Sequence record: EF517049.1
DNA: 486 nt
Reading direction: 5' to 3' (one strand)
Source: a phage
Each line of letters begins with the position of its first letter. Position 1 is the first letter of the stretch. Below the pieces are notes generated by a model. That model had not been told where the DNA came from and searched no databases. It worked only from the letters and a program-made list of their open reading frames with translations. Of the stretch, positions 1 to 486 are shown in pieces. A program made the position numbers and the translations under genes.

Positions 1-2
1 CT

Positions 3-134
3 CGTAAAGAGGCCACACAGTCACGCGCTCTGGCGATTCGCTCCAACGAACTGGCTGACAGTGCATCCACTAAAGTTACCGAGGCTGCTCGTGTGGCAAA
101 CCAAGCTCAACAGCTTTCCAAATTCTTTGAGTAA
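3..134 (+). CDS. 4.3: 3' end of a small phage protein of unknown function (T7 gp4.3-like); 5' end lies outside the window
   Basis: Frame 3 is open from the window start to TAA at 132-134 and translates to RKEATQSRALAIRSNELADSASTKVTEAARVANQAQQLSKFFE, an Ala/Gln-rich, helix-like and protein-like sequence. The same stretch in frame 1 is Trp/Pro/His/Leu-rich and looks non-coding, and frame 2 has stops at 5-7 and 56-58. The stop sits 19 nt upstream of the next start with a Shine-Dalgarno in between. From memory the peptide matches the C-terminus of T7 gp4.3. Confidence 0.75.
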   Translation, partial: RKEATQSRALAIRSNELADSASTKVTEAARVANQAQQLSKFFE

Positions 135-140
135 TCAAAC

Positions 141-145
141 AGGAG
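141..145 (+). promoter_or_regulatory. Shine-Dalgarno / ribosome-binding site for the 154-423 CDS
   Basis: AGGAG at 141-145, followed by an 8-nt spacer before ATG at 154. Confidence 0.7.
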
Positions 146-153
146 AAACCATT

Positions 154-423
154 ATGTCTAACGTAGCTGAAACTATCCGTCTATCCGATACAGCTGATCA
201 GTGGAACCGTCGAGTCCACATCAACGTTCGCAACGGTAAGGCGACTATGGTTTACCGCTGGAAGGACTCTAAGTCCTCTAAGAATCACACTCAGCGTATG
301 ACGTTGACAGATGAGCAAGCACTGCGTCTGGTCAATGCGCTTACCAAAGCTGCCGTGACAGCAATTCATGAAACTAGTCGCGTCAATGAAGCTATGGCTA
401 TCCTCGACAAGATTGATAACTAA
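154..423 (+). CDS. 4.5: Small phage protein, 89 aa, T7 gp4.5-like (the T7 protein is reported as a host Lon protease inhibitor)
   Basis: ATG at 154 with a well-spaced AGGAG, open frame to TAA at 421-423 (270 nt including stop). Product: MSNVAETIRLSDTADQWNRRVHINVRNGKATMVYRWKDSKSSKNHTQRMTLTDEQALRLVNALTKAAVTAIHETSRVNEAMAILDKIDN. This is the first ATG in frame and the upstream part of the frame overlaps the preceding gene. Length and flanking context (gp4.3-like gene upstream, T7 promoter downstream) fit T7 gene 4.5 from memory. Confidence 0.88.
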   Translation: MSNVAETIRLSDTADQWNRRVHINVRNGKATMVYRWKDSKSSKNHTQRMTLTDEQALRLVNALTKAAVTAIHETSRVNEAMAILDKIDN

Positions 424-436
424 GAGTGATATCCTT

Positions 437-459
437 AAGGTCGCCAAAGTGGTGGCCTT
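437..459 (+). other. Imperfect intergenic RNA hairpin; candidate RNase III processing site or mRNA 3'-end structure
   Basis: AAGGTCGCC (437-445) pairs with GGTGGCCTT (451-459): 9 bp including two G-U wobbles, with a 5-nt loop AAAGT (446-450). No U-tract follows, so it is not a canonical intrinsic terminator. T7 has an RNase III site (R4.7) in this intergenic region by my recollection. Confidence 0.35.
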
Positions 460-467
460 CATGAATA

Positions 468-486
468 CCATTCGACTCACTATAGG
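468..486 (+). promoter_or_regulatory. T7 RNA polymerase promoter (phi4.7-like), positions -17 to +2, truncated by the window end
   Basis: CCATTCGACTCACTATAGG at 468-486 matches the T7 consensus TAATACGACTCACTATAGG at -12 to +2 and at -14 and -15. It differs at -13 (T for A), -16 (C for A) and -17 (C for T). The +1 G is at 485 and transcription runs rightward. It sits directly after the gp4.5-like gene, as phi4.7 does in T7. Confidence 0.85.

What the first reader, a model, noticed from the sequence alone, without database searches (positions are those of the whole stretch)
154..423. gp4.5-like small protein: probable anti-defence factor that inhibits host Lon protease
The 89-aa product appears to be the T7 gp4.5 homologue. 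T7 gp4.5 has been reported to bind and inhibit E. coli Lon protease, which blocks Lon-dependent antitoxin degradation and lets the phage overcome a toxin-antitoxin abortive-infection system. This is the most functionally interesting element here, but it is a known function, not a new one. Substitutions relative to the reference protein could alter Lon binding; from memory the T7 protein may read ...IHEAGRVNE... where this one reads ...IHETSRVNE..., which I cannot verify.
Basis: partly seen in the sequence, partly recalled or inferred. Interest (0 to 1): 0.5.

Follow-up and report, generated by a model that had tools for sequence, protein, structure and literature searches.

The report
Phage T7 gene 4.5, mutated copy
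This is bacteriophage T7's own, already described gene 4.5 (a small protein reported to block the host Lon protease and so disarm a toxin-antitoxin defence), carrying two amino-acid changes that are probably harmless and that look like the product of laboratory mutagenesis.

Summary
Bases 154-423 (+) are an 89-codon ORF with an AGGAG ribosome-binding site. Its product is 87/89 identical to T7 gp4.5 and matches Pfam PF17574 (Gp4.5, "inhibitor of toxin/antitoxin system") end to end (E=1e-60). The whole window is T7 13431-13916, 479/486 identical: the end of gene 4.3, gene 4.5, the R4.7 RNase III hairpin and the phi4.7 promoter.

All 7 base differences from T7 are transitions and 6 are G:C>A:T. 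The window agrees with T7 wherever the sampled natural relatives differ from T7. The exact protein is NCBI ABR22863.1, one of a set of partial T7 records with similar changes. So this is most likely a clone from a mutagenised or evolved laboratory T7, not a new phage.

Residues 74-75 lie at the turn between the two C-terminal helices, in the variable third of the family. The 19 invariant core residues are all intact, so loss of function is not expected.

Lon binding and sanaTA evasion come from the literature (Sberro 2013, read only through citing papers) and were not tested here. A weak fold resemblance to PC4/Pur-alpha/Whirly proteins is the only new lead. Verdict: already known, low interest.

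The parts
1..133 (+). 3' end of T7 gene 4.3 (last 42 codons in frame from base 3, stop TAA 131-133). One synonymous C>T change at base 89 relative to T7.
   Evidence: Translation ...RKEATQSRALAIRSNELADSASTKVTEAARVANQAQQLSKFFE*. T7 annotation of gene 4.3. PHROG 1950 E=1.8e-12. Alignment to T7.
141..146 (+). Shine-Dalgarno sequence AGGAGA, 7 bases upstream of the gene 4.5 ATG.
   Evidence: Pattern AGGAG-N5-9-ATG has a single match at 141-156. Identical in T7.
154..423 (+). Gene 4.5: 89 codons plus TAA. It encodes gp4.5, a Pfam PF17574 'inhibitor of toxin/antitoxin system' protein reported to bind Lon. It differs from T7 by C198T (synonymous), G373A (A74T) and G376A (G75S).
   Evidence: The exact protein is NCBI ABR22863.1 / UniRef100_A9XKZ1, labelled Escherichia phage T7.
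373..378 (+). Codons 74-75 (ACT AGT = Thr-Ser; T7 has GCT GGT = Ala-Gly). These are the only amino-acid differences from T7.
   Evidence: In the AlphaFold2 model, residue 74 ends helix 53-74 and residue 75 begins the two-residue break before helix 77-88. In the family, column 74 is highly variable (S 39, D 16, N 10...) and column 75 is G in 56 of 84.
424..473 (+). R4.7 RNase III processing hairpin between genes 4.5 and 4.7. It carries G429A, C436T and T469C relative to T7.
   Evidence: Annotated as 'single-stranded RNA cleavage site; R4.7' at the same coordinates (424-472) in Yersinia phage Y. The fold keeps the hairpin, but MFE goes from -23.1 (T7) to -18.7 kcal/mol (window).
468..486 (+). 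T7 RNA polymerase class II promoter phi4.7, positions -17 to +2 (the window ends at +2). T469C is position -16.
   Evidence: CCATTCGACTCACTATAGG matches the T7 consensus with 3 mismatches, and 0 of 200 shuffles give a match. T7 annotates the phi4.7 start at record 13915, which is window 485. Phage 13a annotates the promoter at 468-486.

Best explanation
The feature is bacteriophage T7 gene 4.5 in its native class II context: gene 4.3, SD, gene 4.5, R4.7 RNase III site, phi4.7 promoter. It is transcribed rightward by T7 RNA polymerase, and the transcript is cut at R4.7. It encodes an 89-aa basic protein (pI 9.9). The predicted structure is a four-stranded antiparallel sheet (residues 5-50, strongly conserved, pI about 11) followed by two helices (53-74 and 77-88, poorly conserved). 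From the literature, not tested here: gp4.5 binds the host Lon protease and prevents Lon from degrading labile antitoxins. A Lon-triggered toxin-antitoxin abortive-infection system such as sanaTA therefore stays silent and the phage completes its cycle. By inference, the conserved sheet and first helix carry the activity. The distal helix and the 74-75 turn are dispensable, because the most distant family members of 70-80 aa lack them. This copy differs from reference T7 by A74T and G75S. These are most likely neutral or mildly destabilising passengers acquired in a mutagenised or evolved laboratory T7 population in which gene 4.5 is not needed. That provenance is an inference from the mutation spectrum and from the sibling database records.
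For: Identity: 479/486 bases and 87/89 residues match T7. Pfam PF17574 matches full length at E=1e-60. Synteny matches the T7 annotation. Coding constraint: 23 of 27 natural variable sites are on third codon positions. Function in the literature. Structure: AF2 mean pLDDT 89.1, strands 5-9, 16-26, 29-38, 41-50, helices 53-74 and 77-88. Conservation: 19 invariant columns all lie within residues 7-59 and all are intact in the window. Mean identity to the window is 80% over residues 5-59 and 34% over 60-89. Distant homologues of 70-84 aa keep the ...DT.D...R...RWK...HTQR core and lack helix 2. Provenance: all 7 differences are transitions, 6 of them G:C>A:T. 5 of the 7 are private among the 10 comparison sequences (T7 reference, two mutagenised T7 isolates and 7 natural relatives), and the window sides with T7 at every site where the natural relatives differ from T7. 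The exact protein is ABR22863.1 (T7), next to sibling T7 records whose changes can each be produced by a single G:C>A:T transition. The allele is absent from 50,697 phage records, from viral, metagenome and genome contigs, and from the assembly gene index. Evolved T7 isolates K115 and P82 carry 3-4 further G:C>A:T changes in the same 486 bases.
Against: Lon binding and inhibition were not tested here. The primary paper (Sberro et al. 2013) could not be read, and citing papers hedge ('might inhibit', 'thought to'). A 2024 preprint reports weak (about 70%) gp4.5-dependent effects against a RADAR system and suggests a more general ATPase-inhibitor role, so Lon may not be the only target. G75 is the majority residue in the family (56 of 84), and Ser there is rare in natural members, so a modest effect on stability cannot be excluded. 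The mutagenesis provenance rests on the mutation spectrum and on my recollection of the T7 mutagenesis literature. The nucleotide record behind ABR22863.1 could not be retrieved.
Confidence: 0.8

Rival explanations
1. The two substitutions (especially G75S, at a glycine that caps helix 1) damage gp4.5, so this allele is a decaying copy of a gene that is dispensable under laboratory growth. It would no longer protect the phage from Lon-dependent toxin-antitoxin systems.
For: Two of the three changes in the gene are non-synonymous first-position changes, whereas 23 of 27 natural changes are third-position. That fits relaxed selection. G75 is the majority residue (56/84). Gene 4.5 is deleted outright in several laboratory-evolved T7 lines (PMC8923235; truncated matches in MZ375xxx records).
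Against: Column 75 also tolerates K, V, T, A, S, C, P, D, E and R in natural homologues, and column 74 is one of the most variable; S is its commonest residue and T occurs. The whole distal helix is missing in distant members. All invariant core residues are intact. The reading frame is open, and the SD and start codon are unchanged.
Confidence: 0.15
2. gp4.5 is not a dedicated Lon inhibitor. It is a broader inhibitor of host AAA+ or other ATPases, as proposed for RADAR and by analogy with the F1-ATPase epsilon subunit, and Lon is only one of its targets.
For: The PhageMaP preprint reports that deletion of gene 4.5 lowers plating on RADAR2 by about 70%, restored by complementation. It also reports that gene 4.5 is more important in UTI strains carrying CcdAB, and claims structural similarity to the F1 epsilon subunit (PMC11482910).
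Confidence: 0.15
3. gp4.5 is a PC4/Pur-alpha/Whirly-type single-stranded nucleic-acid-binding protein, and its conserved basic sheet binds ssDNA or RNA. The Lon interaction is then secondary, or works through the nucleic-acid-binding properties of Lon.
Confidence: 0.12
4. The real gene is the 99-codon ORF on the opposite strand (181-480, -), and the + strand ORF is incidental.
For: An ORF of 99 aa starting with GTG is listed there.
Against: The ORF is shortened in several natural relatives: the longest stop-free stretch on the minus strand falls to 77-84 codons in 04922B, CQ615, 64795_ec1 and 13a. Substitutions follow the codon periodicity of the + frame. No record annotates it. It is established knowledge that all T7 genes are transcribed rightward.
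Confidence: 0.01

Closest known systems
Bacteriophage T7 gp4.5 (NP_041980; Pfam PF17574 TA_inhibitor)
   Same: Same gene at the same locus. 87/89 residues are identical, and the flanking gene 4.3, R4.7 site and phi4.7 promoter are the same.
   Different: A74T and G75S at the turn between the two C-terminal helices, plus one synonymous change. There are three further changes in the downstream R4.7/phi4.7 region.
Sibling partial T7 records ABR22861-ABR22877 and evolved T7 isolates K115/P82 (AY264776, AY264778)
   Same: T7 background with scattered changes of G:C>A:T type. G75S recurs in ABR22869 and ABR22877, and A74V occurs in ABR22861/67/73. K115 and P82 carry 3-4 such changes in the same 486 bases.
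   Different: Each clone has its own set of changes. The A74T + G75S combination is seen only in ABR22863.1, which is the window.
Other phage-encoded Lon antagonists: T4 PinA (from my own knowledge) and Pseudomonas phage PaoP5 Dap2 (PMC13083879)
   Same: Small phage proteins that bind host Lon and prevent degradation of a Lon substrate to the phage's benefit (Dap2).
   Different: No sequence relationship. Dap2 protects a phage HNH endonuclease and also binds ExsA, whereas gp4.5 is reported to protect a host antitoxin. The binding sites on Lon are unknown for gp4.5.
PC4 / Pur-alpha / Whirly / MRP single-stranded nucleic-acid-binding fold
   Same: Four antiparallel strands followed by a helix. 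These are the best and most consistent PDB fold matches.
   Different: Marginal scores, no sequence similarity, an extra second helix, and no evidence of nucleic-acid binding.

Membership tests
T7 gp4.5 / Pfam PF17574 (TA_inhibitor) | Full-length match to the family profile above the curated threshold | tested here: met
   E=1.1e-60, 202 bits against a cut-off of 27, residues 1-89 on profile 1-89.
T7 gp4.5 / Pfam PF17574 (TA_inhibitor) | Near-identity to the T7 reference protein over its whole length | tested here: met
   87/89 identical, no gaps, E=1e-64.
T7 gp4.5 / Pfam PF17574 (TA_inhibitor) | Genomic position between gene 4.3 and the R4.7 site / phi4.7 promoter in the class II (DNA metabolism) region | tested here: met
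   The window aligns base for base to T7 13431-13916, which carries those annotated features.
T7 gp4.5 / Pfam PF17574 (TA_inhibitor) | Invariant core residues of the family retained (T7 T13 D15 R19 H22 N24 V25 K29 T31 V33 Y34 R35 W36 H45 Q47 R48 T50 Q55 L59) | tested here: met
   All 19 invariant columns of the 86-sequence alignment carry the window's residue.
T7 gp4.5 / Pfam PF17574 (TA_inhibitor) | Physical binding to, and inhibition of, host Lon protease | not testable with these tools
   Known only from the literature for wild-type T7 gp4.5. The primary paper is not held.
T7 gp4.5 / Pfam PF17574 (TA_inhibitor) | Required for plating on a host carrying the sanaTA toxin-antitoxin system | not testable with these tools
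   Literature: about three orders of magnitude protection against T7 lacking gp4.5. The A74T/G75S allele has never been tested, as far as I could find.
PC4 / Pur-alpha / Whirly ssDNA-binding fold | beta-beta-beta-beta-alpha topology | tested here: met
   AF2 model, pLDDT 89: strands 5-9, 16-26, 29-38, 41-50, then helix 53-74.
PC4 / Pur-alpha / Whirly ssDNA-binding fold | Significant structural superposition on solved members | tested here: inconclusive
   [not shown]
PC4 / Pur-alpha / Whirly ssDNA-binding fold | Sequence or profile similarity to PC4, PurA or Whirly families | tested here: not met
   No such family at E<=10 among the 25 Pfam families listed for the 86 members (43 matched in all). 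No PDB chain of these families at E<=10 with the family profile.
PC4 / Pur-alpha / Whirly ssDNA-binding fold | Binding of single-stranded nucleic acid | not testable with these tools
   Needs gel-shift or anisotropy assays with purified protein.
F1-ATPase epsilon / IF1-like ATPase inhibitors (proposed in PMC11482910) | Ranks among the best structural matches to solved structures | tested here: not met
   [not shown]

The most novel reading that the evidence does not exclude
gp4.5 would be a phage member of the PC4/Pur-alpha/Whirly class of single-stranded nucleic-acid-binding folds. Its invariant basic and aromatic sheet face (R19, H22, K29, Y34, R35, W36, H45, R48) would be the working surface. 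That surface would either bind nucleic acid or mimic a nucleic-acid-bound ligand towards Lon, itself a DNA-binding protease. This would give a first structural mechanism for Lon inhibition. Separately, the repeated hits at codons 74-75 in sibling T7 clones (A74V three times, G75S three times, A74T once) could reflect selection rather than shared descent.
Probability: 0.12. Interest if true: 0.5.

Novelty: already known. Interest (0 to 1): 0.12.

Why it matters
It matters little beyond correct annotation. The gene, its family and its reported anti-defence role have been in the literature since 2013, and the exact protein sequence is already in NCBI as a T7 record. Two modest points follow. First, the window is a laboratory-type T7 variant, so its substitutions should not be read as natural adaptation of Lon binding. 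Second, the mechanism of Lon inhibition by gp4.5 is still structurally undefined. The conservation map (invariant basic sheet, dispensable distal helix) and the weak PC4/Whirly-like fold resemblance give concrete residues to mutate.

Tried and rejected
1. I looked for the exact allele elsewhere. Megablast and tblastn against 50,697 phage records gave a best match of 98.6% DNA and 97.8% protein identity. A 32-mer spanning codons 70-80 had no match in viral, metagenome or genome contigs. The assembly gene index had nothing. Only the exact-sequence look-up in the 15-billion-protein collection found it, as ABR22863.1.

2. I tried to read the primary papers: Sberro 2013 as PMC3644417, Springman 2010 as PMC2815918 and Bull 2007 as PMC1865999. 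None is held. The Lon evidence is therefore second-hand, and the link to a specific mutagenesis study remains my inference.

3. No PDB sequence relative exists, either with the single sequence or with the family profile.

4. Rfam gave no match. There are no sigma-70 promoters or intrinsic terminators.

5. PADLOC gave only noise-level hits.

6. The afdb50 fold library was unavailable. BFVD returned only family members plus weak, unannotated hits.

7. An exhaustive profile search of 1.84 billion representatives found only 22 proteins at E<=0.001. Seventeen are small gp4.5-like proteins and one is a 186-aa protein with the domain at its C-terminus. The other four are large proteins with several short matches: three carry HYR_4C repeats and CHU_C domains (P0116, P0118, P0119) and one has a LapD/MoxY periplasmic domain (P0120). 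I rejected these four as motif-level matches rather than homologues. None links the family to PC4/Whirly.

8. I rejected a natural recombinant origin for the 7 differences. Only base 89 (phiA1122 and Yersinia phage Y) and base 373 (13a) are shared with any sampled relative, and the window otherwise follows T7 at every diagnostic site.

9. I rejected the antisense 99-aa ORF.

10. I checked by eye the 5'-purine-G context expected of alkylating mutagens. Four of the six G:C>A:T changes fit, which is not distinguishable from chance, so I do not use it.

Full report
**1. What is in the window**

The 486 bases align without gaps to T7 NC_001604 positions 13431-13916, with 479 identical (98.6%). By the T7 annotation and by direct reading, the window holds the following features.
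- Bases 1-133 are the last 42 codons and the stop of gene 4.3 (translation; PHROG 1950).
- AGGAGA at 141-146 is a Shine-Dalgarno sequence.
- Bases 154-423 are gene 4.5, 89 codons plus TAA.
- Bases 424-473 are the R4.7 RNase III hairpin. It is annotated at the same coordinates in Yersinia phage Y and folds as expected.
- Bases 468-486 are positions -17 to +2 of the class II promoter phi4.7.

The finding's coordinates and the 89-aa length are therefore exact.

**2. Is it gp4.5?**

Yes.
- BLASTP against T7 gp4.5 gives 87/89 identical with no gaps, E=1e-64.
- Pfam PF17574, 'Inhibitor of toxin/antitoxin system (Gp4.5)', matches residues 1-89 on profile positions 1-89 at E=1.1e-60.
That is A74T (GCT>ACT) and G75S (GGT>AGT).
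- Among eight natural relatives, 23 of 27 variable sites in this frame fall on third codon positions, so the frame is coding and under purifying selection in nature.
- The 99-codon antisense ORF is shortened in several relatives and shows no such periodicity. I reject it.

**3. Where this copy comes from**

No phage genome record holds the allele; the best match is 98.6% DNA and 97.8% protein identity. It is also absent from viral, metagenome and genome contigs and from the assembly gene index.

The exact protein is nevertheless in NCBI nr as ABR22863.1 / UniRef100_A9XKZ1, labelled Escherichia phage T7. It sits in a run of sibling T7 entries:
- ABR22861/67/73 carry A74V.
- ABR22869 carries G28D, M49I, A67V and G75S.
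- ABR22877 carries V60I, G75S and A82T.

Each of these amino-acid changes can be produced by a single G:C>A:T transition.

In the window itself all seven differences from T7 are transitions, and six are G:C>A:T: C89T, C198T, G373A, G376A, G429A and C436T. The seventh is T469C.

I compared the window with T7, two evolved T7 isolates and seven natural relatives. Five of the seven differences are private to the window. The window carries the T7 base at every site where the natural relatives differ from T7.

The complete genomes of T7 isolates K115 and P82 (AY264776, AY264778) carry three and four further changes of the same type in these 486 bases.

My inference is that the window is a clone from a chemically mutagenised or long-passaged laboratory T7 population. 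From memory, this would be the nitrosoguanidine experiments of the Bull laboratory. That such experiments exist is confirmed by a citing paper (PMC8923235). I could not read the primary papers or the nucleotide record, so this link is not proven.

**4. What the protein looks like and where the substitutions fall**

I aligned the window protein and T7 gp4.5 with 84 of the 85 cluster representatives from the 5.8-billion-protein collection, 86 sequences in all.
- The 19 invariant columns all lie within residues 7-59, and all are intact in the window.
- Mean identity to the window is 80% over residues 5-59 and 34% over residues 60-89.

AlphaFold2 with this alignment (mean pLDDT 89.1) gives four antiparallel strands (5-9, 16-26, 29-38, 41-50), helix 53-74, a two-residue break (75-76) and helix 77-88.
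- Residue 74 is thus the last residue of helix 1, and residue 75 is the first residue of the turn.
- Column 74 is among the most variable: S 39, D 16, N 10, R 6, A 4, G 3, T 1 and others.
- Column 75 is G in 56 of 84 but also K, V, T, A, S, C, P, D, E or R.

An exhaustive profile search of 1.84 billion representatives found only 22 proteins at E<=0.001. The most distant small members (70-84 aa) keep the ...DT.D...R...RWK...HTQR... core and lack helix 2 altogether.

I conclude that A74T/G75S are unlikely to abolish function. A mild effect of losing the helix-capping glycine cannot be excluded.

**5. How it most likely works**

This part comes from the literature.
- E. coli carrying the Shewanella sanaTA (DUF1814) system resists T7 lacking gene 4.5 by about three orders of magnitude.
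- gp4.5 interacts with Lon and is thought to inhibit or sequester it. The labile antitoxin is then not degraded and the toxin is not released (PMC3985639; PMC8230891; bioRxiv 10.64898/2026.01.19.700257; PMC11323111).
- A 2024 preprint adds that gene 4.5 matters more on UTI strains with CcdAB, another Lon-dependent system. It also reports a weak effect against RADAR, and speculates that gp4.5 is a general ATPase inhibitor resembling F1 epsilon (PMC11482910).

None of this can be tested with sequence tools, and I mark it as reported rather than shown here. My own inference is that the invariant, basic sheet plus helix 1 is the working part (residues 1-51 have pI about 11).

**6. A structural lead**

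No solved relative exists by sequence. By fold, the best PDB matches are consistently the beta-beta-beta-beta-alpha single-stranded nucleic-acid-binding class:
- Drosophila and human Pur-alpha repeat III.
- Whirly proteins WHY1-3, PBF-2 and StWhy2 (Foldseek E 0.13-0.6, TM about 0.5).
- MRP1/2 and MoSub1.

No ATP synthase epsilon or IF1 chain is among the listed matches. The scores are marginal for an 89-residue protein, and there is no sequence-profile support. This is a lead, not a classification.

**7. Comparison with what is known, and novelty**

This is T7 gene 4.5 itself and the protein is already deposited, so the finding is already known. It works like other phage Lon antagonists. These are T4 PinA (from my own knowledge) and PaoP5 Dap2, which binds Lon to protect a phage HNH endonuclease (PMC13083879). 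It is unrelated to them in sequence.

**8. Verdict**

The speculation that the substitutions alter Lon binding is not supported by conservation or by the structural position. Interest is low (0.12). The most novel reading still open is the PC4/Whirly-like mechanism, with probability about 0.12.

Noticed in passing
window 89, 198, 373, 376, 429, 436, 469: All seven differences from T7 are transitions and six are G:C>A:T. Five are private among the 10 comparison sequences, and the window follows T7 at every site that separates T7 from its natural relatives. This is the signature of an alkylating or deaminating mutagen, or of a long laboratory passage, rather than natural divergence.
   Followed up: yes
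window 373-378 (codons 74-75); sibling proteins P0005, P0093, P0094: Sibling T7 records hit the same two codons repeatedly: A74V in ABR22861/67/73, G75S in ABR22869 and ABR22877, and A74T+G75S in the window (ABR22863). This could be shared descent within one evolving population, a mutational hotspot, or selection at this turn. It is unresolved because the nucleotide records and the paper were not available.
   Followed up: partly
window 424-473: In the R4.7 RNase III hairpin, G429A breaks the G429-C468 pair and T469C converts the G428-U469 wobble pair to G-C. C436T lies in the internal loop. Predicted stability falls from -23.1 to -18.7 kcal/mol, but the hairpin is kept.
   Followed up: partly
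window 469: T469C is also position -16 of the phi4.7 promoter, in the AT-rich upstream recognition region. The T7 base there was already non-consensus (consensus is A), so the number of mismatches to the consensus stays at 3.
   Followed up: partly
window 424-486 versus 1-423: Three of the seven changes fall in the 63 non-coding bases and four in the 423 bases upstream, nearly all coding (Fisher p about 0.05). This is a weak hint that even in this lineage coding changes were somewhat filtered, or simply chance.
   Followed up: partly
[not shown]
   Followed up: partly
P0117 (186 aa): One distant homologue carries the gp4.5 core at residues 119-180, behind an unrelated 118-residue N-terminal extension with no Pfam match. 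It is the only multi-domain small member of the family that was seen.
   Followed up: partly
P0116, P0118, P0119 (532-1951 aa): Large Bacteroidota-type surface proteins with HYR_4C repeats and a CHU_C type IX secretion signal match the gp4.5 profile in several short stretches (motif ...TRTWKV.D..GN..SHTQ...). I judged this a motif-level coincidence in a beta-hairpin repeat, not homology.
   Followed up: partly
L009 (phage 13a) 152-433; T3- and Klebsiella-phage homologues: The C-terminus of gp4.5 is remodelled in relatives. 13a has 93 aa with a different tail, and tblastn matches in T3-like and Klebsiella phages cover only residues 5-60/81. This agrees with a dispensable distal helix.
   Followed up: partly
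T7 records MZ375240 and others; PMC8923235: Many heat-adapted laboratory T7 genomes match the window only from base 118 onward, and others have deleted genes 4.5-4.7 altogether. This shows that the region is dispensable and deletion-prone under laboratory growth.
   Followed up: no
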